The notes: a model not told the origin generated them from the sequence alone. 64,000 nucleotides of DNA from a virus (IMGVR_UViG_3300012344_000014:42581-106580), one strand, 5' to 3'; positions 15,174-37,165 are shown, counted from the stretch's first letter. A program made the numbers and translations.

Positions 15174-15488
15174 GTGGAATGGCTAATTCAATTCCTGGTA
15201 AAGTATTGGGTTGAGTAGCTGCTGACGGCGGTCGTTGGAGCGTTCGTCGCGTATATCAAGAAAGAGGCGAGCACGCAAAAAGCGCTCAGACACGGAATGG
15301 TGGCGCTGCTGCGGGACCGGCTTTATCAGGCACACAATCAATACGAACATCTCGGGTATTTTCCAATCGATGCGCGCGAAGTGGTCGAGGATATGTTCAA
15401 ACAATATATAACGCTCGGCGGGAACGGCATTGTCCGGCATTTGAAAGAGGCGCTGGACGAACTCCCCACTGAGCCAGGGAAACAATGA
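15174..15488 (+). CDS. holin-like membrane protein (read through in-frame TAG 15216-15218)
   Basis: GGAG RBS 9 nt before GTG 15174, in frame with track ORF 15297-15488. The N-terminal TM segment WLIQFLVKYWVE-TAG-LLTAVVGAFVAYI is present only if TAG is read through. Confidence 0.55.
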
Positions 15489-15766
15489 AACAAAATCTTT
15501 CTAAACCCGAGACTTCGAAAATTATTCTTTTCAGAACTTTCTGGATATTCTGGGCGCTGGTTGTGCTTGTTATTGTGATGATCGCTTTGTTTCCCGCGGT
15601 AGGGGATTATATGATCGATGTACTGCAGACCGCGGCCACATTGGCCGGGGCGGTTCATGTCGGATATTTCGGAAAAGCTGGTATAGAAAATTTCAAGAAG
15701 ATTGAGTCTGCGATGAGAAATTCTGTGGACGATGATGTCTATGACGACGAAGACTGCGAAGGATAA
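15485..15766 (+). CDS. membrane protein (second holin candidate)
   Basis: 93-aa ORF with an ATGA overlap to the previous gene. TM segment IILFRTFWIFWALVVLVIVMIALF. Confidence 0.6.
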   Translation: MKQNLSKPETSKIILFRTFWIFWALVVLVIVMIALFPAVGDYMIDVLQTAATLAGAVHVGYFGKAGIENFKKIESAMRNSVDDDVYDDEDCEG

Positions 15767-15776
15767 AGAAAAAATT

Positions 15777-15826
15777 TGACCCTGCTACTTCCTTTCCGGA
15801 GGTGGCAGGGTCATTTTTTGTTTTTG
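15777..15826 (+). terminator. rho-independent terminator at the end of the late/lysis operon
   Basis: TGACCCTGC (15777-85) pairs with GCAGGGTCA (15805-13), followed by TTTTTTGTTTTT. Confidence 0.7.
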
Positions 15827-15904
15827 GACGCATGCAAATGCAGGAGATGTAGTTCATTGTGTAGTATAGTAGTTCCTTACGTAGTGTAAAGGAAGGGTTC
15901 CCCT

Positions 15905-17527
15905 TCATAAGGAAACATTCTATTGGTCGAGCTTCCCGGCGAACTTGTAGTAAATTTCTATTTTCTGCGTTGGTTTGCCATTCTGGTCACAGCGTCTATC
16001 GTGGACTACGATTTTGTCGATCAGCGCATTGAGCATCGGGATAGTCAGTTTGGTTGGATGGGTGTAACGTTTGACCATGTTAGCCCATTCGTTAAGACCT
16101 CTTTGGGTTTCGTCGGTAGCTCGTTGTGCTTCTTCGGCGGCAGCGATGAATTCTTGAAGGGCGGTTTGCTCGTCTTGGTATTTTTTGAGCAGCGTCGAGA
16201 AATTGTTCGGAGTGATGTTTCCTTCGGCGCGATCCTCATAGAGTGAGGCGAGCATCCCGTCTATTTTTCGTAGACGCCGCTTTTTATCATCAAGCTTCGC
16301 TTGCTCCTTGTCCCCACTAGACTGAGTTGCTTTGCGCGAAGAATTCATAATCTCCTGGGCAAAATCTATTTCGTTCCCAGCGAGTGTCGAGGTCCAATAC
16401 TGTATCCGTGATAGCACATAATTGTAGAGGGTAGACTGCCTTATGTAATGCGCGGTGCAGTGTTCTTTACCGAATTCCGAATATTGCCGGCAGACGTAGG
16501 CTTTATCGTCGGGAGCATAGCAGGGACGGGCTTTCAACGCTTTCCCGCAGGTTGAACATTTTAGCAGACCGGCGAAAAGCTGGGGCGTCCCATCCCCGCA
16601 GGAACGACGCCGCCGTGAAATATTTTCCTGAACCCGCTCGAATGTCTCGCGCGATATAAGAGGCGGATGGGTATTTTCTACCCGGTAAAACTCATCAGCG
16701 GAGTTGTGAATTCGTTTTTTGCTTTTGTACGAAATCTTTTGCCTGCGGTAATGAATCGTATTTCCAATGTATGTTTCATCCATCAGTATGGAACGCACGG
16801 CGGAGCTTTGCCAGAAGCTTTTCTTCTCTTCGGCGGCGTTCTCATAGTATTGCGAATACGCGCCGTAGCGGCTATAGCCAACCCAGCCCGGGGTAGGGAC
16901 TTTGGACGTCCTCAGATACCTTGCGATTACATTGTAGCCGTTTCCTTCCAGCGCAAGCGCGTATATCTTTTCGATGATCCAGCGGGTGTCTTCGTCGATG
17001 AGGAGTTTGCCTTTTTCTTTCGGACTCCATATATAACCGAGCGGCGGTGTGGGGCCTAGGCGTTCGCCTTTTTCATATTTCGCTTTTAGCGCGGCCTTTA
17101 CTTTCCGGCTGGTGTCTTTGGCGTACCACTCGTTGAAGAGGTTCTTAAAAGGGGAGAAGTCGCTCATACCTTTCTCGGAGTCTTCGCCGTCGTTTACCGC
17201 CACATAGCGGACGCGCTTCTCAGGGAACACGTATTCCAAGTAGCGATCCACCTGAATGTGTTCGCGCCCCAACCGGGAGAGGTCTTTTGTGATAACGCAA
17301 TTCAACGCGCCTTTGTCAATGTCCGCCATCATACGTTGAAACGCCGGTCGGTCAAAATTTGTACCAGACCATCCATCGTCGACGTATTCATCATAAATCG
17401 CAATGTTGTTGTCTTCGCAATATTGATGAAGAATCCGGCGCTGCGTTTCAATGCTGCCGCTGTCGCCCGGCTCTCCGTCATCGTTGCTTAGCCGCATGTA
17501 AAGAGCGGCTACCCAGGGTTGTTTCAT
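15905..17527 (-). CDS. large serine recombinase (integrase)
   Basis: Resolvase-type N-terminus (ALYMRLSNDDG...SIETQR), recombinase and zinc-ribbon regions and a C-terminal coiled coil. AAGGAGG RBS before ATG 17527. The frame meets TAG at 15920-22, then TGA at 15905-07. Confidence 0.9.
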
Positions 17528-17594
17528 TCCCATCCTCCTTTCGATAGAGAAACAACCCACATTTGCATGCGGGTTGATTATAGCATAAGTGGAA

Positions 17595-17756
17595 TTAAGA
17601 CGCAATTTTAAGATTGCGAAGGATGAATTCTTTGAAGAGGTCGGCGAATGGTTGGCCGTCCGCAGCGAAATGTTCTGTTATAAGAATTTTCACTTTGCCG
17701 GCGTCAAAGCATTTTTGTTCAGTCAATAGTATATTCTTCTCTGCGATTCCGAACAT
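17595..17756 (-). CDS. small hypothetical protein upstream of the recombinase
   Basis: AAAGGAG RBS then ATG 17756; 53 codons (MFGIAEKNILLTEQKCFDAGKVKILITEHF...) ending in TAA 17595-97. Below the track length cutoff. Confidence 0.4.
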   Translation of the reverse strand: MFGIAEKNILLTEQKCFDAGKVKILITEHFAADGQPFADLFKEFILRNLKIAS

Positions 17757-17901: not shown

Positions 17902-18225
17902 TCATTCCCCATAAAGAATTTCGACCCCATAAGCCTTAGCCGCCTCATGTTCAAGCCGGCAGCCGCGTGCCTGCTCCCAACCATTGCAAAAGTAAGCGGC
18001 ATGACACAGGCTCATATTTTCAAGGCTCTTTGCGAGAAAAGACAAGGGAATCTGAACGACGCCGCGCTCGGTCATCGCCTCCTTGTTGTACCATTCATCG
18101 GTAAAGGGTGTATTGACGACAACATAGCCCATGTTCTCCAGCGCCTTAATGGCACGGTTGCGGGTTTCAATAATTTCCTGTTCGGTTTTGCCAGCCATCG
18201 GCTGAGATAACATTGCCTTCTTCAT
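17902..18225 (-). CDS. DUF4406 / nucleoside 2-deoxyribosyltransferase-like protein
   Basis: 107 aa; the pattern QPMAGK...NP...CHAAYFCNGWEQARGCRLEHEAA recalls DUF4406 (from memory). Confidence 0.5.
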   Translation of the reverse strand: MKKAMLSQPMAGKTEQEIIETRNRAIKALENMGYVVVNTPFTDEWYNKEAMTERGVVQIPLSFLAKSLENMSLCHAAYFCNGWEQARGCRLEHEAAKAYGVEILYGE

Positions 18226-18254
18226 ATTTTAATATTCCTTTCTAAAATGCGATG

Positions 18255-18263
18255 TGTTACAAT
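18255..18263 (+). promoter_or_regulatory. extended -10 promoter (TGTTACAAT)
   Basis: TGnTACAAT lies 20 nt upstream of the small + strand ORF at 18283. Confidence 0.45.
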
Positions 18264-18282
18264 GTAAGTGGAGGTGGCGCAT

Positions 18283-18444
18283 GTGACAGACAACGAGAAA
18301 AAGAAAATAGGCGCAGAACTTGATAAGCTGAGTGAAGCTGTAGAGAAGATCCAAGAATCCGCCGATGTACCAGGGCTCAAAGATGCGCTTGAAGCAATTT
18401 ATAATCTGCTGGAGAAAATTATATCCGAGGAAGGGTGGCAGTAA
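18283..18444 (+). CDS. small + strand hypothetical protein (53 aa)
   Basis: GGAGGTG RBS then GTG 18283. The predicted sequence is helical and acidic, and the hairpin at 18433-18466 follows. Confidence 0.4.
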   Translation: MTDNEKKKIGAELDKLSEAVEKIQESADVPGLKDALEAIYNLLEKIISEEGWQ

Positions 18445-18466
18445 TTATTCTGCCGCCCCATTTTTC
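18433..18466. terminator. hairpin terminator between convergent genes
   Basis: GGGTGGCAG pairs with CTGCCGCCC (one G-U pair), followed by CATTTTTCTC. Confidence 0.5.
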
Positions 18467-18633
18467 TCTGAGGAAAACTGTTCATTGGTAGCTTCAATTT
18501 CTGCAAAGCACGGGACAAAAGTAACGCGCCTCATTTCCTTCATGGCCGCATCATATTCTTTTTGAGCGGCAAGAAGACGCTTTAAGGCTTTGCTCATTTC
18601 CTCTGGTTCAGGGGCGTTAAAAATATATTGCAT
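18445..18633 (-). CDS. hypothetical protein
   Basis: 62-aa ORF in an operon with the neighbouring - strand genes. Confidence 0.45.
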   Translation of the reverse strand: MQYIFNAPEPEEMSKALKRLLAAQKEYDAAMKEMRRVTFVPCFAEIEATNEQFSSEKNGAAE

Positions 18634-18648
18634 TGTATTTATCTCCTT

Positions 18649-19080
18649 TTAATTATATTTCATTTTTTGAAGAAGGCTTCTGTATAGGGGTTCCAGCTGC
18701 GGTGAGGACGCTTTGAATTTTTTCTGTTCGCAATTATGCGTCTTACCGGCTTTATAAAAACCATGACCGACTTCATGATACCGAGAGCGGTCCATATAGG
18801 CATATTCCATTTCAATATCCGGAAGCTGCTTTGTAATGCCTTTATAAAGCATAAAGGGCGGCATATAAACCGTTTTGAAGGCAAGCAGCCGCTCATCATT
18901 AAACCCTGGATCGAATGTAACGGGAGATTTCTCCTTCACGCCGGTTTCAGGAATTGCGGGATGCTGTTTAAGATAAGCGCCGCTGGGCTTAAATTTAACG
19001 ACGCCTTTCTTGCCGCACAGTTTCAGGACGGCTTCATCGAGCTGCTCTTTTGTGCCGGTGATGCGCAGATAGTTTTCCAT
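18649..19080 (-). CDS. hypothetical protein
   Basis: 143-aa ORF with a TAATG-type junction to the upstream gene. Confidence 0.55.
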   Translation of the reverse strand: MENYLRITGTKEQLDEAVLKLCGKKGVVKFKPSGAYLKQHPAIPETGVKEKSPVTFDPGFNDERLLAFKTVYMPPFMLYKGITKQLPDIEMEYAYMDRSRYHEVGHGFYKAGKTHNCEQKKFKASSPQLEPLYRSLLQKMKYN

Positions 19081-19397
19081 TAAACCTTATCCTCCTTCAT
19101 GTTTTCAAGCAGCAGGTTATACAGATCGCGTGTGGTGGCGAGCGGAATGTCTTTGTCCCCGTCCGTTATCATGCCAGGTTTATATCGCCGGCCGAAGTTA
19201 AGCTCCCAACAGAAGTAGCCGGTCCAGTCGTTTTCTTTATCTTTCATAATAATTTCCAGCAGGTTTACAATGGGATCGTCCAGCTGGCACAGTTCAGGAA
19301 GGCGTATGGCGTCGTCTGTTGCATCCGAAACCTTTTCGCAGAAGTCGTTCCATTCCATCAATCGGTGCAGAATTTCATCGAATAAGTCAAATGTCAT
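19080..19397 (-). CDS. hypothetical protein
   Basis: 105-aa acidic ORF. Confidence 0.55.
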   Translation of the reverse strand: MTFDLFDEILHRLMEWNDFCEKVSDATDDAIRLPELCQLDDPIVNLLEIIMKDKENDWTGYFCWELNFGRRYKPGMITDGDKDIPLATTRDLYNLLLENMKEDKV

Positions 19398-24378: not shown

Positions 24379-24556
24379 CGGCCGGTACCTGCACATAGAG
24401 GCCGCAGCAACATTCCTTTGTCGTCCGGAACGCAAGGCACGGACATTTGTTATCATCAGTCTTCTCGACCCGGCAGGGGCAATAGCCGTTGTTAGCGGCT
24501 ATTCTCCCCCTGAGCATCGCGACGAAATCCTTATCAGGATTCAGTTTGATTTTCAT
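24371..24556 (-). CDS. ferredoxin-thioredoxin-reductase catalytic-subunit-like small Cys protein, copy 1
   Basis: NPDKDFVAMLRGRIAANNGYCPCR......KCPCLAFR....CCCGLY. Paralogue at 30201-30419. Family call is from memory of the FTR beta CPC...CPC...CHC pattern. Confidence 0.55.
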   Translation of the reverse strand: MKIKLNPDKDFVAMLRGRIAANNGYCPCRVEKTDDNKCPCLAFRTTKECCCGLYVQVPADD

Positions 24557-26855
24557 ATTCCTGTCCACCGAAATACCTCCGGTCATATTCATTCTTGCGC
24601 TCGGCCGACCACTTCGACACGCGGGTCAGATAGCCGATGATGCGCGTGGCATAATCCAGATTTTCACTGCTGCACTTTGGGCACTTCTCCAGCTTGTGCT
24701 TGCTGATATACCCGCAGTCGTTGCAGATGGTATTGGGAACGTTGAAGGTAAAATACGAGCAGCCTTCATGAATCGCGTTGAGAATGAGCAGCTCGTACTG
24801 GCGAGCGGTGAGGTGTTCTTCGAGGTTGATATGGCAGGCGCTGCCGCCGTCGAGATTGCGGATATAACGATCGCCATGCAGCCGAATCTTATCAAGAACC
24901 GTTGTTTTAGGATCTTCAACCACGAAGAAATAGCTGTTATAACACGCTCTCGGGACGGAGAGCCCGTCGGCTTTATCCCATTTGGCGTTCTTCACGCCTA
25001 AGCTTTCGGCTGGCACGTACTCCGTGTTAAACATAACGCCCGGCTCGGCATCGGCCACGTTCCGCCGGTGAATCGTATCAAGGATGAGATCAGTGAACTC
25101 GCCGTAAGCCTTGTTGTCACCGACCGGAATGCCCAGATACTCCGCCGCCTCGACCAGACCGTTGATGCCAACGGTAAGATACTGCTTCTCCGGCGAAACG
25201 AACCCTGCGTCATAAAGCGGGATCATATGCTTGGCCTGCGCATCCTTCACCATCGCGTTATACGCTTTCAAATAGCGATGGACATGCGCGGTCAGATCGT
25301 CAAGCGAGGCTTTGACCTTGGCCAGATCGCCGCCGCAGCCCTGAACGAGCCGGTTGATATTGATGGTCATGACGCGCTTGGAGCCGGTCGCGATGCCGCC
25401 CGCGCCAAGGCTGTAAGTGAACTGGTTTTCAACGATGTTGTTTTTCAGGCGGCAGTTATGCGTAATTACTCCGGAGGGAAGCATGAAGTAGGGCTCGCAC
25501 CCATCATCAACCTCGAGGCAGTAAACATAATCGTATGTATTGGCGCTCTCGATCACCTCAGATACCGGGCGGTATGTATACATCCTGCTTTCGGGATCCC
25601 AACACTGGACTTCATCCCCCTCGACGAGCTCCTTCGCCTGGACGTCTCCGCGCCGGGTGGGGAAAAGATGGTTATCCGTCACCTCATACATATGGCGGGC
25701 GTTCGGCTTGACGTCGATTGTGATAAAATACATCTGACGGCCGGGGAGACGAATGAGAGTCGCGGGAACCACTTCCTCACCGAGCATAACCCGAACACGA
25801 AAATCCTGTTCCTGTTCAAGCATCTGGTAAAGACGCTCTGCAGCCCCGACAAGCAATGTGTTATGCTGGTCCCAGACGGAGAACAGTGTATCCGGCGCAA
25901 AGCAGCACGAACTCAAGCTATCCACGCTATCGCTGGTATAAGTGAAAAAACTGTGCCCTTCGGCATACATCTCGGCGATATGCTTCAGTGCCCGCTGGTC
26001 AACAGCCGTCTTGCCGTTGTTCAGGAGAGAGAACGTTTCGACCGGGAAGGTGATGATCTTGCGGAGCCGCTCCTGATTAAACCACTTCATAAACCGAACC
26101 TGCAGCCACCAGAGGGACTCCCAGAGATCGGTCATTACTGTGCCGTCCGGGAAGGCGAAACCTTCGAACAGCCCGCGGAAATACGGCTCATCAAAATAGG
26201 AAATATTCCAGAAGACGGCCTGATTGCCGCGCGCCGCCGCCGGTTGATTGACCGAGTAGACAACCTGCGCGAAGGTATCGGTGATCACGTTATCAATGGT
26301 GCGCTTGCGGCCGAACAGTTCGGCTTGCGTATCCGGCTTCAGATAATAATCTTCGCCGTATTCCTTGACGAGGAAATAGTTCATATAGGCGAGAAACTCC
26401 GGGGTGGCAATCGCGCCGAGCACCTGAGCGGAAGCGGCGAACACCAGATTGACAAACCCGCCGGCGAAACTTTGCAGCGTCTTGGGAGCGTCCGACGTGC
26501 CGCCCAGCCCCTTCAAGCCGTGCAAAAGAAACGGGTACATAGTGATGCTAGCGCAATAGATCTGCGGGGTCTGGCCGGTTTCATCATGGCAATAGACACG
26601 ATGGGTTTCGAGGTTATCAATGTAGCTGTCGGCCTCTTCCTCGCCGTACATGGCGGTGAGCATATCATGCATCATCAACCGGCTGGTATAGATGCGGCCG
26701 CGCTTACCGCTTTCGGACGCGAGGGTGGCCAGATTCTTTGAACTGACATTGGAGTTTGGATCATAGTCGCTGCTTTCGGCGGCGCATTTTTCATCCATAT
26801 AACGTCTGATGAAATTTGCTTCCGGACGATAGCGCGCATATTTGTCGGGGATCAT
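24534..26855 (-). CDS. nrdD: anaerobic (class III) ribonucleotide reductase, intein-containing
   Basis: 773-aa ORF; Zn ribbon CNDCGY..KCPKC, glycyl-radical motif TRIIGYLTR, and the active-site SSC/CRL motif split by an insert. Confidence 0.95.
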   Translation of the reverse strand: MIPDKYARYRPEANFIRRYMDEKCAAESSDYDPNSNVSSKNLATLASESGKRGRIYTSRLMMHDMLTAMYGEEEADSYIDNLETHRVYCHDETGQTPQIYCASITMYPFLLHGLKGLGGTSDAPKTLQSFAGGFVNLVFAASAQVLGAIATPEFLAYMNYFLVKEYGEDYYLKPDTQAELFGRKRTIDNVITDTFAQVVYSVNQPAAARGNQAVFWNISYFDEPYFRGLFEGFAFPDGTVMTDLWESLWWLQVRFMKWFNQERLRKIITFPVETFSLLNNGKTAVDQRALKHIAEMYAEGHSFFTYTSDSVDSLSSCCFAPDTLFSVWDQHNTLLVGAAERLYQMLEQEQDFRVRVMLGEEVVPATLIRLPGRQMYFITIDVKPNARHMYEVTDNHLFPTRRGDVQAKELVEGDEVQCWDPESRMYTYRPVSEVIESANTYDYVYCLEVDDGCEPYFMLPSGVITHNCRLKNNIVENQFTYSLGAGGIATGSKRVMTININRLVQGCGGDLAKVKASLDDLTAHVHRYLKAYNAMVKDAQAKHMIPLYDAGFVSPEKQYLTVGINGLVEAAEYLGIPVGDNKAYGEFTDLILDTIHRRNVADAEPGVMFNTEYVPAESLGVKNAKWDKADGLSVPRACYNSYFFVVEDPKTTVLDKIRLHGDRYIRNLDGGSACHINLEEHLTARQYELLILNAIHEGCSYFTFNVPNTICNDCGYISKHKLEKCPKCSSENLDYATRIIGYLTRVSKWSAERKNEYDRRYFGGQEYENQTES
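25455..25904 (-). mobile_element. mini-intein (150 aa) in nrdD
   Basis: The insert starts CFAPDT directly after SLSSC and ends VITHN, followed by +1 Cys (CRLKNN). Removal restores the SCCRL-type motif. No endonuclease motifs were seen. Confidence 0.85.
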
Positions 26856-32555: not shown

Positions 32556-32594
32556 CATATAATAAAGGGAACATTTTTCACCCCGCTTTTTCAG
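32556..32594 (-). promoter_or_regulatory. conserved intergenic element, copy 2
   Basis: The - strand reads TGAAAAAGCGGGGTGAAAAATGTTCCCTTTATTATATGAAAAG, between the Pol III alpha stop and the SPFH gene. Confidence 0.5.
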
Positions 32595-35500
32595 TTTGAG
32601 CGGGCGAAACAGAAATTTTTTTGTAGCCGTCCATCCAAAGCTCAGTCACGCCGGGCTTGACAGAACGTTTGCCATCCTGATACTGATAGGCGGGCTTCTT
32701 CTGCCAGCCAAGGAGCTTGATGACGTCGCCGGCCTTAACGGGATCTTTAGCGAAATCAGGCTTGCGAATTTTCATCACACCGGTGTCTCCGGTGGAGACG
32801 CTATAGAGCTTCAGCTTGGGGCTATATTTCTCATCCACATCAATGACGGCGTAGCAGCCCTTCTTTTCGGGATAGACGCTGAGGGGCGCGCCGAAATAGT
32901 CGCACTCGAAGGGAATGATTTCCTCCATGGGGAGATCTTCATCCGGCAGGGAAGACTCCAGATCGCGCAGGACGGCGAGACGTTTCTGCTGCGTCTTCTC
33001 GACGAGCCCTTTATAGAACCGGTTCTCGCCGGACTTGAACTCCTGAAAGAGCTTGAGCAGTTTGGCGGAGCCGCCGAAATCGCTGAAGTATCCCATCTTG
33101 ATGAGCGCGGTGATGCTGGTGGCGTCGAACGCCGGAGACATATCCATATCGTAAAGCAGATCGGTGAAGTAAAGATACAGCGTATCGCGCATTTTATAGA
33201 GCGCGTCGGCGACTTTTCTACTGACGTGCTTGACGGAGGTGAGCGCGTCGGCGATGGTGTGCGCGCTTTCATCGATAAAGAAATCGCGGTTATCCTGCCC
33301 GAACTTGCAAGCGACGACGCGGATGCCGAACGCCCGACGCATTTCCTCCTTGGCTTTGGCGATGCGGTCTTTATCCTTCTTGGCGGCGTAGGCGCGAAGC
33401 AGGGTGGTGTAATACTGATAAGGATAGTGCGCCTTGAGCCATGCGCCGTAAAGACTATCCAGCGCGACGCAGGTGGCATGCGATGCATTAAAAAGATAGG
33501 AGCAGGAATCGTTGATGATCTGCCAGATTTTATCGGTGGTGGCGAGAGCTTCGGCCTCAGTGACATGCTCCTCCTCCACGATGCGCTGAGAGAACGTGGC
33601 GCGGAACTTTTCCTTGAGAGCGAGCACCTTTTCGGGATGCTTCTTCGAGATGGCCTTGATGGCGGCATAGGATTCAGCCCCAGTGAAACCGCCATGCTGT
33701 AGGACTTTCATGATCTGCTCCTGAAACATGAGGAAGCTGTCGGGAATTTCTTTCGTCTGAAGCAGGTTATCCAGCGAGGGGATACCATAATCGAAATGCC
33801 GGCGGGCGAGGAATGTATCGATCATCGACTTGAAGCCCGGGCGGATGGCGGCGACGAACGCGGCCAGCTCGGTAATATTGCGCGGCTTATAGCGGGCGAC
33901 CTTTTCAGTGGCCTTCTCGCGCTCAACCTGATTGAGCCCCATGGTATAGCCTTTGGCGTACATATCCCAGACTGGATCATCCGGCGGGCACATGGCGAGC
34001 AGTTCGTTAACAGAGGGGAGGGGGATATTGGCGGCCTTGTAGGCGGCGGCGTTGATGTTGACGACGGTGACGGAAAGAAGATCGTTTTTTAGATATCCGT
34101 ATCGATCCGCTGTCGCCCCGTCGATAAAAGCGGCATAAATAGTTCCCTTCTTGCCGGTTTTGCTATTGATACGATAAAGCCCAATTTCCCGGCGGATATC
34201 CTGATCGGTCAGAAGATAGGAACAGGGGCTGGGGGAGATGGAATCGACCATGCCAAGATATTTATTGGACATGCGCAGCTGCTCATGATACTCCTTGGGC
34301 ACGTAATCGAACGGATCGATGGCTTCGCGGTCTTCATCGTCTTCGGCGTATTTTACATCAAGCTCATACTTTTTCAAGCTGTCAGAGATGGCGTTAGCCG
34401 TTTCGAAGGCGACGTTGGTAGAACGGCAATACATCTTCCAGGCGGAAAGCCGTTTGAGCGTGCCAAAGGCGACCATCTGCGCGCTATGCCACTCGCCCAT
34501 GACCTCGGCCTGCGCTTTTTCAAACACCTCAACGTTGCCGCAGTTCAGATCCAAATCCGGCATCTGACCGGTGCTCAGGCGCTCTTTGGAAATAAACCGG
34601 TCGGGGTACATGGTGACGGGCATCTTCAAGCGATCAACGGAGGAGAAGCCGAGAAGCATATTCGTCAGGAAACTGACGCCGCTATTATGGACGACCATAT
34701 GATTAAGTAAGTAGCTGTGTGAATTTTCGATATGCAGATCGTAGACTTTGCACTTCTGCCGAGGTAGAAGATTGATTCCAGTAACTGGAATAAGCCAGTA
34801 CTTGTCGTTTTCAGATATTTTGCGTGACATCCCATAAGGAGTTGAATAAACGGGAATAACCCATTTATATGAGGTTTTGCAGTTATAACCGCGTTTATCA
34901 AACCAACGATCTCGCACTGTAAGCCGCGGCGGCTTCTCTCCAGCTTTCATACAAAGAATATTAAAGGCGTTCATCAAGGAAGGAGATGTATTGTCAAAGC
35001 ATTTACGATCCGATTCAGCAAAACAGCCATCGGTACGCATAAGCCCCGATAAAAAAGCTTTTGATTTCTCGTTATCAAGAAGCAAAATCTCATCGGGGAC
35101 AACTTTATCGTTTCCCTTTTTTGAAATGAAATACGTACAGCCAAGATATTTAGCAAAGGAAGAAGCATGCAGGGTAAGTTGAACCAATTTTTTATTTTTA
35201 GCTTTCGCTTCATAAATAGTTCCGCCAACCCGCGATGCCATAGTCTCAAAGATTTTGCGATTGTAAATATTTTTTTCGTTCTCCGCATTGATGGCAATAC
35301 CACAGACATAACTGCCGTCGTTTCTATGTCGAACCCAGCCGTCTCCATACATCATACCAAGGAATTCGTAATAGAGCGCGTCTTTAACGACCCATCTGCT
35401 CATCAACCGAAAACAAGTATCCTTATATTTTTGCGTAAGCGCTTCTTGAGTATCAACACCATAATAATCGAGTATTTCTCTTTTTGCTTTATTGAGATAT

Positions 35501-37089
35501 ACCCCAGGGCCACGACGAACTTCCGCGGAAGTTCGCCCAACAACAAAATTGTATAACGCTGAACGGGAGATGTGGAATTTTTTCATCAGGATTTCCCAGC
35601 CAAACGCTTCGCGCATCATGTCTTTGCGTAATTCAAAAATATGATCTCCGTCAAATATAGAGGCTCTGCTAATGTATTTGCTGAGATCAACCACTTCGGC
35701 AGTTTGTGAGGCCGGCTGAACAATCTTCGGAATACAAAGCAAATCCCCTTTCTTCAGCCGCGATGCTTCCACCCAGTCATAAGAGCCGTTCAACCGGCAA
35801 ACGAGAACACGATGATCCAACGTACATGTAGGATAAGAGCCAAACATCTTATTCGCCGGAGCCTGAATTTCAACAAGGGGTTCGTCAATATCATAAGAGA
35901 AGGTTTCAATTACTTTTTGATAATCCCCATCCTTATCAATTACAACGTCTCCAGGAGCCACTTGCGAAATTTGTTTCAGCCCGGTCAGTGTTGGCACACG
36001 CGCAGTGTCGGTGAAACAGCCCCTTCCAGATTGGGTTAACACCCCGCCTTCCCGCTTGGCAGTATCGACAACGCGGTTATCAATAAGAAAATAATCCGAA
36101 GTGTTGGTACCGGTAACGGCGTCTGTCTCATACCGGATCGCTTCTTCGTATTCCGGCCAGCGCTCCTGCGGCACTTCAGCTTTATACTGATCCCACGCCT
36201 GATGTACAAGGTCGAGATATTTTTGATTGCGCTCTTCCTGCGTCATGTCGGGATAAGCCGCGGGGAGCTTGCGGCGTTTACCAAACGAGACATCCTCAAA
36301 ATCCAGGAAGACGTTTGTGTTTTCCATCGCTTCATTAATCTGGGCGACGGACAGAACGCCCTGCGCCTTGAACCTGTCGAGCAAATGCTTTTCAGAGGGA
36401 TAATCCATATCCCAACCCTCTTCATCTTCATATTTAAGATGATGGGACTCAAGCAGCTGATCGCGCAGTTTGGAATCCTCCGGGTAAATGAAATGGGAAT
36501 CGGTTGCGGCAATGAGCGGGATATTATACTTGCGATAAAGATCGAGCACGAGCCGGTTGACATCCTTCTGCTTATCGACGTTATGCGCCTGAACCTCGAG
36601 CATGAAGCTGCCGCGGAAATGATCGTTCAAGAGCGTAACGAGCCGTTCGGCCTCCTCCGCGCCGTACTTCCAAATACCGCCGACGCAGGCTGTGGTAACG
36701 AATACATCCTTCGGATCGAGGGCCATGAGCAGATCCAGATCGACGCGGGGGCGATAGTAATAGCCGGTGATATTCGCTTCGGAGAGCGCATAATTCAAAT
36801 CGCCGACGCCTTTGCGCGTCTTCGCTGCCAGAATGAGATGGCAGTTGGATTTGTCTTTTTCGAAGCGGTCCTTGACGAAATAGGCTTCGGTAACATAGCG
36901 CCACTTCAGGCCATACTTTTCAGCTAGCTCGGCGCACTCCCAATAGTTGCCCTGCGTGCCATGGTTACAGGAGGAAAGAACCGTCTGGTTCAGTTCGACG
37001 GCGCGCCTGGCGTAATCCTCCATGGTGGCGACGCTGTCGGCAAGCATGATATTGGAGATGTGATCATGTTTATGATAATTGACGTACAT
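32578..37089 (-). CDS. dnaE: DNA polymerase III alpha subunit (PHP plus polymerase core), intein-containing
   Basis: GGAGGT RBS then ATG 37089. The PHP N-terminus is MYVNYHKHDH. About 1500 aa; the GRG/SGVSF (GRGSAAGS-type) motif is split by an insert. Confidence 0.9.
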   Translation of the reverse strand: MYVNYHKHDHISNIMLADSVATMEDYARRAVELNQTVLSSCNHGTQGNYWECAELAEKYGLKWRYVTEAYFVKDRFEKDKSNCHLILAAKTRKGVGDLNYALSEANITGYYYRPRVDLDLLMALDPKDVFVTTACVGGIWKYGAEEAERLVTLLNDHFRGSFMLEVQAHNVDKQKDVNRLVLDLYRKYNIPLIAATDSHFIYPEDSKLRDQLLESHHLKYEDEEGWDMDYPSEKHLLDRFKAQGVLSVAQINEAMENTNVFLDFEDVSFGKRRKLPAAYPDMTQEERNQKYLDLVHQAWDQYKAEVPQERWPEYEEAIRYETDAVTGTNTSDYFLIDNRVVDTAKREGGVLTQSGRGCFTDTARVPTLTGLKQISQVAPGDVVIDKDGDYQKVIETFSYDIDEPLVEIQAPANKMFGSYPTCTLDHRVLVCRLNGSYDWVEASRLKKGDLLCIPKIVQPASQTAEVVDLSKYISRASIFDGDHIFELRKDMMREAFGWEILMKKFHISRSALYNFVVGRTSAEVRRGPGVYLNKAKREILDYYGVDTQEALTQKYKDTCFRLMSRWVVKDALYYEFLGMMYGDGWVRHRNDGSYVCGIAINAENEKNIYNRKIFETMASRVGGTIYEAKAKNKKLVQLTLHASSFAKYLGCTYFISKKGNDKVVPDEILLLDNEKSKAFLSGLMRTDGCFAESDRKCFDNTSPSLMNAFNILCMKAGEKPPRLTVRDRWFDKRGYNCKTSYKWVIPVYSTPYGMSRKISENDKYWLIPVTGINLLPRQKCKVYDLHIENSHSYLLNHMVVHNSGVSFLTNMLLGFSSVDRLKMPVTMYPDRFISKERLSTGQMPDLDLNCGNVEVFEKAQAEVMGEWHSAQMVAFGTLKRLSAWKMYCRSTNVAFETANAISDSLKKYELDVKYAEDDEDREAIDPFDYVPKEYHEQLRMSNKYLGMVDSISPSPCSYLLTDQDIRREIGLYRINSKTGKKGTIYAAFIDGATADRYGYLKNDLLSVTVVNINAAAYKAANIPLPSVNELLAMCPPDDPVWDMYAKGYTMGLNQVEREKATEKVARYKPRNITELAAFVAAIRPGFKSMIDTFLARRHFDYGIPSLDNLLQTKEIPDSFLMFQEQIMKVLQHGGFTGAESYAAIKAISKKHPEKVLALKEKFRATFSQRIVEEEHVTEAEALATTDKIWQIINDSCSYLFNASHATCVALDSLYGAWLKAHYPYQYYTTLLRAYAAKKDKDRIAKAKEEMRRAFGIRVVACKFGQDNRDFFIDESAHTIADALTSVKHVSRKVADALYKMRDTLYLYFTDLLYDMDMSPAFDATSITALIKMGYFSDFGGSAKLLKLFQEFKSGENRFYKGLVEKTQQKRLAVLRDLESSLPDEDLPMEEIIPFECDYFGAPLSVYPEKKGCYAVIDVDEKYSPKLKLYSVSTGDTGVMKIRKPDFAKDPVKAGDVIKLLGWQKKPAYQYQDGKRSVKPGVTELWMDGYKKISVSPAQTEKAG
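34684..36018 (-). mobile_element. intein (445 aa) with LAGLIDADG homing endonuclease in Pol III alpha
   Basis: Starts CFTDT after QSGRG and ends MVVHN followed by +1 Ser. Two LAGLIDADG-like motifs are present (FLGMMYGDGW, FLSGLMRTDGCF). The region is visibly more AT-rich than its flanks. Confidence 0.9.
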
Positions 37090-37103
37090 AATACCTCCAC
37101 CCC

Positions 37104-37132
37104 TTGTTATTTCAAATGAGACATGATATACT
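37104..37132 (+). promoter_or_regulatory. sigma-A-type promoter (TTGTTA-N17-TATACT with a TG extension)
   Basis: Lies in the divergent intergenic region between dnaE and the + strand island. Confidence 0.55.
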
Positions 37133-37165
37133 TTGTTTATAATGCACGAAAGGATTTGAACGACA

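What the first reader, a model, noticed from the sequence alone, without database searches (positions are those of the whole stretch)
34684..36018. LAGLIDADG intein in the Pol III alpha GRGS motif, compositionally distinct
A 445-codon insert splits the GRG|S(G) motif. It starts with Cys, ends with HN and is followed by Ser. It carries two LAGLIDADG-like motifs (FLGMMYGDGW, FLSGLMRTDGCF). By eye the insert is clearly more AT-rich than the flanking polymerase sequence, consistent with recent horizontal acquisition of a homing element.
Basis: partly seen in the sequence, partly recalled or inferred. Interest (0 to 1): 0.5.

Follow-up and report, generated by a model that had tools for sequence, protein, structure and literature searches.

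The report
Mobile LAGLIDADG intein in phage DnaE
A selfish protein-splicing element (an intein carrying a homing endonuclease) sits in the active-site motif of a gut phage's DNA polymerase, and nearly identical phages lack it, so it has moved recently; it is an ordinary kind of element.

Summary
Window 36018..34684 (minus strand) is a 445-codon in-frame insert in a phage dnaE (Pol III alpha) gene. It splits GRG|SG, starts with Cys, ends with His-Asn and is followed by Ser. It matches Pfam Intein_splicing above threshold. It keeps all class-1 splicing residues and both LAGLIDADG catalytic Asp. Its high-confidence AlphaFold model resembles PI-TkoII, PI-SceI, PI-PfuI and I-DmoI. GC is 42.2% against 52-54% in the flanks (GC3 40% against 63-70%), the lowest-GC stretch of its size in the window.

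Recent mobility is shown by population data rather than by composition. Metagenomic sister phages are 98-99.6% identical over 23 kb and have a precisely empty site. One pair has identical DnaE extein proteins with and without the intein. In that pair the only extein differences within about 9 kb are one substitution at -505 and ten synonymous changes at -1..+15 of the junction. A more distant relative carries a mini-intein at the same site.

Homologous inteins occupy this site in at least 70 diverse DnaE clusters and in Lactococcus phages 949 and P1048. This is a new member of a known kind. Whether the window's lineage gained the intein or the empty-site lineage lost it is unresolved.

The parts
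36019..37089 (-). dnaE N-extein (357 codons: PHP domain and start of the Pol III alpha catalytic domain), ending ...LTQSGRG
   Evidence: Pfam PHP and DNA_pol3_alpha, NCBIfam DnaE models. Start ATG 37089 with GGAGG at 37098..37094. Colinear with intein-free homologues.
34684..36018 (-). Whole intein, 445 codons, Cys1 ... His444-Asn445, followed by Ser+1
   Evidence: Intein_splicing 43 bits, above the 35.8 cut-off. AF2 pLDDT 89.1. Foldseek top hits are intein homing endonucleases. Absent from sister genomes with exact boundaries.
35725..36018 (-). N-terminal splicing (Hint) region, intein aa 1-98, with block A Cys1 and block B T66-L-D-H69 (35823..35812)
   Evidence: C1, T66 and H69 are invariant in the 19-sequence family alignment. 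This part is retained in the L004 mini-intein. It is beta-rich in the model.
35413..35643 (-). Helical, helix-turn-helix-like insert (intein aa about 126-202; core WEILMKKFHISRSALYNFVVGR at 35598..35533) between the Hint and endonuclease domains. Probably an accessory DNA-binding module.
   Evidence: Helices at 132-139, 141-148, 152-159, 172-185 and 191-202 in the model. Conserved pattern in family members; missing in the phage 949 intein. No Pfam match, so the function is inferred.
34819..35412 (-). LAGLIDADG homing-endonuclease core (intein aa about 203-400), two motifs with catalytic Asp226 (35364..35335) and Asp330 (35055..35020)
   Evidence: D226/G227 and D330/G331 are invariant or nearly so. 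Two alpha-beta-beta-alpha-beta-beta-alpha halves in the model. Foldseek match to I-DmoI at E about 2e-6, TM 0.66. This segment is deleted in the L004 mini-intein.
34684..34818 (-). C-terminal splicing region (intein aa 401-445) with block F VYDL (34746..) and block G VVHN (34695..34684)
   Evidence: V425, Y426, D427, H444 and N445 are invariant. Retained in the L004 mini-intein.
32578..34683 (-). dnaE C-extein (701 codons plus stop) starting SGVSFLTNML...; rest of the catalytic, finger and HhH domains
   Evidence: Pfam DNA_pol3_alpha resumes at profile position 66 at residue 803; DNA_pol3_finger and HHH_6 follow. The spliced length of 1058 aa equals that of intein-free homologues.
34668..34683 (-). 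First 16 nt of the C-extein (AGC GGC GTC AGT TTC C). This is the junction tract that differs at 9 synonymous positions from the empty-site allele (TCG GGT GTA TCT TTT T). One further difference is at the last N-extein base, 36019.
   Evidence: These 10 changes plus one at -505 are the only extein differences within about 9 kb between L015 (intein+) and L011 (empty). The intein-bearing alleles of the window and L004 share AGC...AGT Ser codons, and L005 also begins AGT but has TCA at the fourth codon. The empty alleles L011, L010 and L009 begin TCG, with TCT or TCC at the fourth codon.

Best explanation
The insert is a canonical class-1 intein with a built-in LAGLIDADG homing endonuclease and an extra helix-turn-helix-like module. 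It lies in the GRG|S nucleotide-binding motif of the catalytic domain of a phage-encoded Pol III alpha (DnaE). The host is a roughly 119-kb phage, probably of gut Clostridia.

Proposed mechanism:
- The gene is translated as a 1503-aa precursor.
- The Hint domain (Cys1, Thr66/His69, Asp427, His444-Asn445, Ser+1) excises itself and ligates the exteins into a 1058-aa polymerase (inferred from the conserved residues and the fold).
- In mixed infections the endonuclease, with Asp226 and Asp330 as catalytic residues, cuts intein-free dnaE alleles at the GRG|SG-coding site.
- Repair from the intein-bearing copy then copies the intein in, together with a very short flank. This step is inferred, but it is supported by the population pattern.

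The element is, or very recently was, mobile in this phage species. The window's lineage most likely acquired it by homing from a lower-GC donor pool. The reverse event, precise loss in the empty-site genomes, is not excluded.
For: - **Anatomy.** Coordinates, Cys1, HN and Ser+1 are as described. Pfam Intein_splicing is above cut-off. The DnaE domains are split at profile positions 65/66 of PF07733, and NCBIfam finds DnaE models.
- **Conserved residues.** The family alignment shows invariant C1, T66, H69, G227, D330, G331, V425-Y-D427, H444 and N445, and a nearly invariant D226.
- **Fold.** The AF2 model has pLDDT 89.1 and pTM 0.85. Foldseek hits are PI-TkoII 2cw7 (E 8e-17), the TliVMA intein, PI-SceI, PI-PfuI and I-DmoI.
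- **Same site elsewhere.** The site is occupied by homologous inteins in Lactococcus phages 949 and P1048. It is also occupied in at least 70 of the top 150 cluster representatives, whose exteins are 22-52% identical to the window's.
- **Empty sites in relatives.** L009 (61% identity) and L008 are uninterrupted. The P0153 cluster is also empty (96% aa identity, 25 members).
- **Near-identical empty genomes.** L011-L013 are 98% nt identical to the window over 23 kb and lack exactly the 1335 bp.
- **Closest pair.** L015 (intein+, intein DNA 100% identical to the window's) and L011 (empty) are 99.57% identical over 23,177 nt. From -4939 to +4267 around the junction they differ only at -505 and at ten synonymous positions in -1..+15.
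- **Identical exteins.** P0274 (intein+) and P0283 (empty) have identical extein proteins.
- **Diversity pattern.** Among intein-plus genomes the intein differs at 0-0.7% of residues and the exteins at up to 2.2%. In the long-term comparison with L004 the intein evolves about 2.3 times faster than the exteins (dN 0.156 against 0.069).
- **Composition.** 42.2% against 52-54% GC. The immobile NrdD mini-intein in the same window has native composition, 53.8%.
Against: - No experiment shows splicing or cleavage.
- The Pfam LAGLIDADG_3 match is below its cut-off (20.1 against 22.5 bits).
- On the extein NJ tree the two empty alleles nest inside a mostly intein-plus subclade. This is equally or more parsimoniously read as precise loss. 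The tree rests on few sites and the gene looks mosaic.
- The junction tract is compatible with conversion in either direction.
- AT-richness is a standing property of all full-length alleles examined, so it does not date the event.
- The outgroup L004 already has a mini-intein at the site, so the intein is old in the wider clade.
Confidence: 0.85

Rival explanations
1. The element and mechanism are the same, but the direction is reversed. The intein was ancestral in the window's subclade. The near-identical empty-site genomes (L011-L013, P0283, P0285) lost it precisely by recombination with an intein-free dnaE allele. That event imported the TCG GGT GTA TCT TTT T junction tract.
For: - The extein NJ tree places the two empty alleles inside a subclade whose other seven members carry the intein.
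- The outgroup L004 carries a mini-intein at the same site.
- The L011 junction tract resembles those of other empty alleles, L010 and L009.
Against: - The intein is less diverse than the exteins among intein-plus genomes. This is the opposite of its long-term rate and fits recent spread.
- Composition is unameliorated (GC3 40% against 63-70%), whereas immobile mini-inteins are partly or fully ameliorated. The L004 mini-intein has GC3 54%; the window's NrdD mini-intein has 63%.
- The tree rests on 5-20 amino-acid differences in a gene whose 3' part looks recombinant.
Confidence: 0.3
2. The intein is an old, vertically inherited and now immobile passenger with a dead endonuclease. Its AT-richness reflects only amino-acid composition or relaxed codon selection.
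For: - The intein is AT-rich relative to its host in three lineages, so the bias is intrinsic or long-lived.
- Intein identity roughly tracks extein identity across relatives: 78/89, 47/52, about 36/40 and about 30/26.
- Pfam LAGLIDADG_3 is sub-threshold.
Against: - There is presence/absence polymorphism with exact boundaries in genomes 98-99.6% identical.
- Extein proteins are identical with and without the intein.
- Both catalytic Asp and the whole 445-codon frame are intact in AT-rich DNA.
- The low GC extends to third codon positions.
- The intein distribution among relatives is patchy: full, mini or none.
Confidence: 0.07
3. The insert is not an intein. It is either an assembly chimera or a non-splicing inserted domain that stays in the mature polymerase.
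For: None was found beyond the general possibility. Metagenomic assemblies do break inside this region in some samples.
Against: - The identical 1503-aa protein occurs on 9 independent contigs from NCBI, JGI, Logan and ENA.
- L015 has 100% identical intein DNA.
- All splicing residues are conserved and the insert interrupts an invariant active-site motif.
- A retained 445-aa domain at this position would be expected to disable the enzyme (inference).
Confidence: 0.01

Closest known systems
DnaE inteins of Lactococcus phages 949 and P1048 (inside ORF116, 'putative DNA polymerase III alpha subunit'; the deposited records do not annotate them as inteins)
   Same: Same host protein family (36% extein identity) and exactly the same GRG|S insertion point. 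Homologous sequence (33.8% identity, tblastn E 7e-32) with Cys1, HN and Ser+1 and two LAGLIDADG motifs.
   Different: About 70 aa shorter (376 aa). It lacks the helix-turn-helix-like insert. Its composition equals that of its host gene, 30.4% against 33.0% GC. The host phage is low-GC and infects Lactococcus.
Structurally characterised bifunctional inteins: PI-TkoII (2cw7), TliVMA/PhoVMA inteins (7qsu, 7qss, 7qst), PI-SceI (1vde), PI-PfuI (1dq3)
   Same: Overall architecture: a Hint splicing domain interrupted by a two-motif LAGLIDADG endonuclease. Foldseek E 8e-17 to 3e-11, probability 1.0. From my own knowledge, not tested here, these inteins also carry accessory DNA-binding regions.
   Different: Only 11-15% sequence identity. 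From my own knowledge, not tested here, they are archaeal or yeast inteins in other host proteins (PolB, VMA1, RNR). The accessory domain here is a small helical module at a different position. Those proteins have biochemical proof; this one has none.
I-DmoI (monomeric, two-motif LAGLIDADG homing endonuclease)
   Same: The fold of the endonuclease core matches (Foldseek E about 2e-6, TM 0.66 normalised to the target). One acidic residue closes each motif.
   Different: From my own knowledge, not tested here, I-DmoI is a free-standing enzyme encoded in an archaeal intron, with no splicing domain. Sequence identity is 16-17%.
Cyanobacterial split DnaE inteins (Ssp/Npu DnaE) and other bacterial Pol III alpha inteins surveyed by Novikova et al. 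2016 (PMC4760082)
   Same: Same host enzyme family. That survey counted 116 Pol III alpha inteins at several sites, so inteins in replicative polymerases are a well-known pattern.
   Different: The common cyanobacterial site 'a' lies in the fingers and its inteins are split. That hot spot is a 75-aa stretch of the finger domain. The present site lies in the catalytic-domain GRG|S motif. I could not determine whether it equals one of that paper's lettered sites.
Actinobacteriophage inteins (Gosselin et al. preprint, 10.1101/2025.01.02.630785)
   Same: These are phage-borne inteins, including some in Pol III alpha. The preprint uses the same argument that identical inteins on diverged exteins indicate recent invasion, and it reports mini-inteins and empty homologues alongside.
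   Different: The phages and hosts are different.

Membership tests
Class 1 intein (Hint-domain protein-splicing element) | In-frame insertion whose removal restores an uninterrupted, conserved host protein | tested here: met
   Removing the 445 codons gives a 1058-aa DnaE colinear with intein-free homologues, with ...GRGSGVSF... contiguous.
Class 1 intein (Hint-domain protein-splicing element) | Block A nucleophile (Cys/Ser1), block B TxxH, block F Asp, block G His-Asn, and a +1 Cys/Ser/Thr | tested here: met
   C1, T66-L-D-H69, V425-Y-D427, H444-N445 and S+1 are all invariant in the 19-sequence family alignment.
Class 1 intein (Hint-domain protein-splicing element) | Profile and fold membership of the Hint/intein splicing domain | tested here: met
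   PF14890 at 43.0 bits against a cut-off of 35.8. The AF2 model (pLDDT 89) matches solved inteins at Foldseek E down to 8e-17, and gp41-1 for the Hint part.
Class 1 intein (Hint-domain protein-splicing element) | Actual protein splicing of the precursor | not testable with these tools
   Inferred only: the polymerase is presumably required by the phage, and intein-plus genomes are common (12 cluster members, contigs up to 119 kb).
LAGLIDADG homing endonuclease (two-motif, monomeric type) | Two LAGLIDADG helices, each ending in a catalytic acidic residue | tested here: met
   FLGMMYGD226G and FLSGLMRTD330G. D330 is invariant and D226 is at least 90% conserved.
LAGLIDADG homing endonuclease (two-motif, monomeric type) | Curated profile match | tested here: inconclusive
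   PF14528 LAGLIDADG_3 scores 20.1 bits, E 7.8e-4, below the 22.5 cut-off, and matches only the second motif region.
LAGLIDADG homing endonuclease (two-motif, monomeric type) | Duplicated alpha-beta-beta-alpha-beta-beta-alpha fold | tested here: met
   The model's secondary structure for residues 214-295 and 316-388 fits the duplicated fold. Foldseek matches I-DmoI, I-WcaI and I-SceI.
LAGLIDADG homing endonuclease (two-motif, monomeric type) | Site-specific cleavage of the intein-free allele and homing | not testable with these tools
   The evidence is indirect only: exact presence/absence polymorphism in genomes 98-99.6% identical, a junction tract, and low intein diversity.
Bacterial-type DNA polymerase III alpha subunit (DnaE, family C), phage-encoded branch | PHP domain, Pol III alpha catalytic domain, finger and HhH domains in order | tested here: met
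   Pfam PHP, DNA_pol3_alpha, DNA_pol3_finger (all above cut-off) and HHH_6 (below). NCBIfam DnaE models at E down to 8e-80, though below the equivalog cut-offs. Identity is 37-39% to the DnaE of Geobacillus virus E3 and Tsamsa-like Bacillus phages.
Mini-intein / split intein | Absence of an endonuclease domain, or the gene divided into two ORFs | tested here: not met
   The window's intein is contiguous and full length. The mini form occurs in relative L004 (151 aa). Apparent split genes in other contigs are contig-end truncations.

The most novel reading that the evidence does not exclude
This reading has two parts.

- **Junction block.** The ten synonymous substitutions packed into -1..+15 of the junction include two AGY/TCN serine-codon switches that cannot arise by single synonymous steps. 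They may be more than passive co-conversion. They could mark endonuclease-sensitive and endonuclease-resistant alleles of the polymerase active-site coding sequence, that is, a live arms race between the phage species and its intein.
- **Family status.** The helix-turn-helix-bearing intein family dedicated to the Pol III alpha GRG|S site is found here in at least 70 divergent phage-type and bacterial-type DnaE clusters. It may be a major intein allele that is not catalogued as such.
Probability: 0.3. Interest if true: 0.5.

Novelty: new member of a known kind. Interest (0 to 1): 0.35.

Why it matters
As biology it is ordinary. Inteins with LAGLIDADG endonucleases in active-site motifs of replication proteins are textbook, and Pol III alpha is a known host.

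The value is practical and illustrative. Public metagenomes hold one phage species with several states of the same site:
- an intein-plus and an intein-minus genome that are 99.6% identical;
- a diverged intein allele;
- in a cousin, a mini-intein together with a group I intron in the same gene.

This is a compact natural snapshot of the homing cycle. The endonuclease target can be read off directly: the empty-site sequence and the 17-nt tract that differs. Target specificity, resistance alleles and conversion-tract length therefore become testable with synthetic DNA.

It also flags that the 949/P1048 lactococcal phage DnaE genes contain an intein that their records do not annotate.

Tried and rejected
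- **Megablast of the dnaE region against the phage collection:** no match.
- **Collection scans with DnaE:** the IMG/VR scan and the JGI metagenome scan found no relatives. Relatives came instead from the protein collections and one genome-contig scan.
- **First protein search with the intein alone:** it returned only one hit (P0001) because of its word filter. The exhaustive representative search was needed to see the family.
- **Sequence search of the PDB:** only insignificant hits, E at least 0.3. The fold search was needed.
- **dN/dS dating of the window against L004:** synonymous sites are saturated (dS about 1.5 or undefined), so no age could be derived.
- **GC3 of shared splicing parts (window 43% against L004 54%):** only about 143 codons, which I judged too few to carry weight on its own; no significance test was run.
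- **'Broken' intein genes (P0280/P0281 and P0277/P0282):** considered as natural frameshifted or split inteins and rejected. The one contig inspected (P0280, L014) ends about 50 nt beyond the ORF, and similarity to the window stops about 140 nt before the contig end. The other three were not looked up.
- **Literature:** I could not establish whether the GRG|S site corresponds to one of the lettered Pol III alpha sites of Novikova et al., or to the Thermus DnaE-1 or DnaE-2 sites.
- **The 135 extra N-terminal codons of the ORF (37494..37090):** rejected as coding. They are low-complexity, antisense to the PG_binding/PASTA gene at 37166..38071 (+), and absent from all homologues.

Full report
**1. 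The observation**

The region lies in one long minus-strand ORF, 37494..32578. Its first 135 codons are low-complexity. They are antisense to a plus-strand PG_binding/PASTA gene at 37166..38071 and have no counterpart in any homologue. The real start is ATG 37089, preceded by GGAGG at 37098..37094.

From that start the protein is 1503 aa. Residues 358-802 (window 36018..34684, 1335 nt, 445 codons) start CFTDTARV..., end ...HMVVHN, follow ...LTQSGRG and are followed by SGVSFLTNML. Both quoted LAGLIDADG-like strings are present, at window 35364..35335 and 35055..35020.

The compositional claim holds on computation:
- The insert is 42.2% GC, against 52.1% and 54.1% in the flanking polymerase segments and 53.3% in the window.
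- GC3 is 40.4% against 63.0% and 69.5%.
- Only 0.08% of 1335-bp windows in the 64 kb are as low.
- It is the largest low-GC island at 600-bp resolution, and its GC3 lies below that of every long ORF in the window (mean 0.586, sd 0.048, minimum 0.476).

**2. What it is**

*Host protein.* Pfam finds PHP, DNA_pol3_alpha, DNA_pol3_finger and a weak HHH_6. The DNA_pol3_alpha match is broken by the insert and resumes at profile position 66 immediately after it. NCBIfam DnaE models match at E down to 8e-80. The spliced protein is 37-39% identical to the DnaE of Geobacillus virus E3, Tsamsa-like Bacillus phages and a human faecal phage. It is about 36% identical to that of Lactococcus 949-group phages.

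*Genomic context.* The rest of the window is clearly phage: tail and tail-fibre proteins, integrases and anti-repressors. The same protein occurs on contigs of about 119 kb. Related dnaE genes occur on contigs of uncultured Clostridia and Lachnospiraceae genome bins.

*Profile evidence for the insert.* It matches PF14890 Intein_splicing above the curated cut-off (43.0 against 35.8 bits). Hint_2 is weak, and LAGLIDADG_3 is just below its cut-off (20.1 against 22.5 bits).

*Relatives of the insert.* An exhaustive profile-free search of 1.84 billion cluster representatives found 917 relatives at E <= 1e-3 and 26 at E <= 1e-30. At least 70 of the best 150 are DnaE proteins carrying a homologous intein at the identical xGRG|C...HN|S position. 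Their extein backgrounds are only 22-52% identical to the window's.

*Conserved residues.* In a 19-sequence alignment the following are invariant: Cys1, Thr66 and His69 (block B), Gly227, Asp330/Gly331, Val425-Tyr-Asp427 (block F) and His444-Asn445 (block G). Asp226 is at least 90% conserved.

*Fold.* AlphaFold2 with that alignment gives a confident model (pLDDT 89.1, pTM 0.85). Foldseek against the PDB returns intein homing endonucleases first:
- PI-TkoII 2cw7, E 8e-17;
- the TliVMA intein;
- PI-SceI;
- PI-PfuI.

The endonuclease core matches I-DmoI at E about 2e-6 with target-normalised TM 0.66.

*Accessory module.* Between the N-terminal Hint part and the endonuclease core the model has a small helical module, residues about 126-202. 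It includes a helix-turn-helix-like stretch (WEILMKKFHISRSALYNFVVGR). The pattern recurs across family members but is missing from the phage 949 intein. It has no Pfam match, so a DNA-binding role is an inference.

**3. Relatives and the question of recency**

*Same site in cultured phages.* In the curated phage collection only Lactococcus phages 949 and P1048 carry a homologous intein (33.8% identity). It sits at exactly the same GRG|S point inside a gene annotated simply as Pol III alpha. Sister lactococcal phages have an uninterrupted gene, or a gene split elsewhere by an inserted ORF.

*A cousin with a mini-intein.* The syntenic cousin L004 is 70-80% nt identical, with 89% extein identity. 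It has a 151-aa mini-intein at the same site. Window 35725..34819, the helical module and endonuclease, is replaced there by about 25 nt.

*More distant relatives.* L005 (52% extein identity) has a full-length homologue with 47% identity. L009 (61% identity) and L008 have empty sites. The distribution is therefore patchy, as expected for a homing element.

*Decisive data.* These came from searching with the spliced polymerase and listing cluster members.
- The exact window protein occurs on 9 contigs.
- An intein-free cluster has 25 member sequences.
- Two intein-free proteins differ from the window's spliced DnaE at only 5-6 of 1058 residues.
- One of them, P0283, is identical in extein sequence to an intein-plus protein, P0274.

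*DNA-level comparison.*
- The empty-site contigs L011-L013 are about 98% identical to the window across 23 kb and lack precisely the 1335 bp.
- L015 is intein-plus, and its intein DNA is 100% identical to the window's. L015 and L011 (empty) are 99.57% identical over 23,177 nt.
- Between -4939 and +4267 of the junction, L015 and L011 differ only at -505 and at ten positions in -1..+15. All ten are synonymous.
- The intein-plus allele reads GGC|AGC GGC GTC AGT TTC CTG. The empty allele reads GGG|TCG GGT GTA TCT TTT TTG.
- The intein-bearing alleles begin the C-extein with an AGY Ser codon: AGC in the window and L004, AGT in L005. The window and L004 also share AGT at the fourth codon. The empty alleles L011, L010 and L009 begin with TCG and have TCT or TCC at the fourth codon.
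- The same junction shows a local excess of differences against the more distant empty allele L010: 12 in +/-15 nt against a mean of 3.5, the top 0.5% of windows.
- Two serine codons switch between the AGY and TCN families. This cannot happen by single synonymous steps. The tract was therefore most likely exchanged as a block with the intein (co-conversion) or with the empty site.

*Diversity pattern.* Among intein-plus genomes the intein varies at 0-0.7% of residues and the exteins at up to 2.2%. In the long-term comparison with L004 the intein evolves about 2.3 times faster than the exteins (dN 0.156 against 0.069). The intein therefore has a younger common ancestor than the genes it sits in. 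One intein-plus genome (P0278) and the contig L014 carry alleles that are 13-16% divergent, so several intein lineages circulate in this phage group.

**4. What composition does and does not show**

The full-length intein is about 9-10 GC points below its host gene in three separate lineages:
- window, 42.2% against about 53%;
- L014, 44.7% against 53.4%;
- L005, 34.0% against 43.9%.

In the already AT-rich phage 949 the two are equal. Immobile mini-inteins are closer to native composition. The L004 mini-intein has GC3 54% against 62-64% in its exteins, and the window's own NrdD mini-intein has 53.8% GC against 54.0%.

The contrast is therefore real and fits an element that keeps moving through a lower-GC pool. 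It is a standing property of the mobile form, not a measure of how recently this copy arrived. Recency rests on the population comparison.

**5. Mechanism and rivals**

*Most likely mechanism.* It has three steps:
- translation of a 1503-aa precursor;
- autocatalytic class-1 splicing, using Cys1, Thr66/His69, Asp427, His444-Asn445 and Ser+1, to give the 1058-aa polymerase;
- in mixed infections, cleavage of empty dnaE alleles by the LAGLIDADG domain, with Asp226 and Asp330 as catalytic residues, followed by repair from the intein-plus copy.

The residues, the fold and the population pattern are shown. Splicing, cleavage and homing are inferred.

*Main open point: direction.* An extein NJ tree nests the two empty alleles inside a mostly intein-plus subclade. 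That would favour precise loss by recombination with an empty allele. However, the tree rests on a handful of sites, and the 3' third of the gene looks mosaic: 34 of the 54 window-L011 differences lie between +1553 and +2072. Low intein diversity and unameliorated composition favour gain. My estimate is about 0.6 for gain and 0.3 for loss. Both are stages of the same homing cycle.

*Other rivals.* An old, immobile passenger is contradicted by the exact polymorphism in near-identical genomes. An artefact is excluded because the identical sequence recurs in independent assemblies.

**6. Comparison with known systems and novelty**

The element meets every testable defining feature of a class-1 intein and of a two-motif LAGLIDADG endonuclease. 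The only exception is the curated Pfam LAGLIDADG score.

Pol III alpha is an established intein host, with 116 inteins at several sites in the survey by Novikova et al. That survey's hot spot is in the fingers, and the common cyanobacterial site is split (PMC4760082). Phage Pol III alpha inteins are noted for actinobacteriophages (preprint 10.1101/2025.01.02.630785). I could not determine whether the GRG|S site is one of the lettered sites.

My recollection, not tested here, is that this Gly-Ser motif is the nucleotide-binding GS motif of the Pol-beta-like palm of Pol III alpha (Lamers et al. 2006). If so, the position fits the usual intein preference for active-site motifs.

The verdict is a new member of a known kind, of modest interest. 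Its worth lies in the unusually clean natural before-and-after pair, which makes the endonuclease target directly testable.

Noticed in passing
window 25904..25455 (minus strand), inside nrdD 26855..24534: The anaerobic ribonucleotide reductase gene carries a second intein, a 150-aa mini-intein (SSC|CFAPD...VITHN|CRLK) with no endonuclease domain. Its composition is native (53.8% GC against 54.0%). Pfam did not report it at E <= 1e-3. Relative L004 has a 310-aa intein at the same NrdD site.
   Followed up: partly
L004 12128-12426 (relative contig ERZ27271080 k141_124078); the equivalent uninterrupted site is at about window 34081: The cousin phage's dnaE is also interrupted by an ORF-less group I intron of about 299 nt. 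Rfam RF00028 scores 41.3 bits, E 5e-9, below the gathering score of 50. The intron lies between ...YLKND and LL(Q/S)V..., and its boundaries fit the U-before and G-last rule. It is absent from the window.
   Followed up: partly
L005 10001-15046 and 16153-21475 (contig XIEF21-1...scaffold_561, 110 kb): A more distant syntenic phage has two inteins in DnaE: one at the GRG|S site and a 179-aa mini-intein at FNS|C...GN|SHS. Its nrdD is fragmented, with intein and HNH matches. This phage clade's replication genes are a hot spot for selfish elements.
   Followed up: no
window 37494..37090 (minus strand) and 37166..38071 (plus strand): The mechanical ORF extends dnaE by 135 low-complexity codons. These are antisense to a real divergent gene (signal peptide, PG_binding_1 and PASTA in homologous loci) and are not coding. 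The true dnaE start is 37089.
   Followed up: yes
window 38881..40083 (-), 40080..40535 (-), 40551..42164 (-): Just upstream of dnaE lie a WGR/PARP-catalytic-domain protein, a small protein whose L004 homologue has a faint Macro hit, and an ATP-dependent DNA ligase. This conserved phage cluster suggests ADP-ribosylation chemistry. It is syntenic in L004, L010, L011 and L015.
   Followed up: no
window 18001..19200, 15401..16100, 37601..38600, 58701..59300: These are other low-GC islands (minima 41.5-44.7% at 600 bp). They contain small ORFs of unknown function. The 15.4-16.1 kb island overlaps the 3' end of the serine recombinase gene (15920..17605). They were not examined for mobile elements.
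   Followed up: no
L001 (Lactococcus phage 949, HM029250.1 69121..73410) and phage P1048: The deposited annotation calls ORF116 a 'putative DNA polymerase III alpha subunit'. It contains a 376-aa LAGLIDADG intein at GRG|S that the record does not mention. Sister phages LW81, AM1, AM2 and AM9 have the gene split in two by an inserted ORF at a different place.
   Followed up: partly
L014 5904-6042 (contig ERZ27287399 k141_897213) and proteins P0277, P0280-P0282: Several assemblies yield DnaE fragments that stop or start inside the endonuclease domain. In L014, the only one of these contigs inspected, similarity to the window stops about 140 nt before the contig end. These look like assembly breaks at a polymorphic element, not natural split inteins. 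The L014 intein allele is about 16% divergent in protein from the window's.
   Followed up: partly
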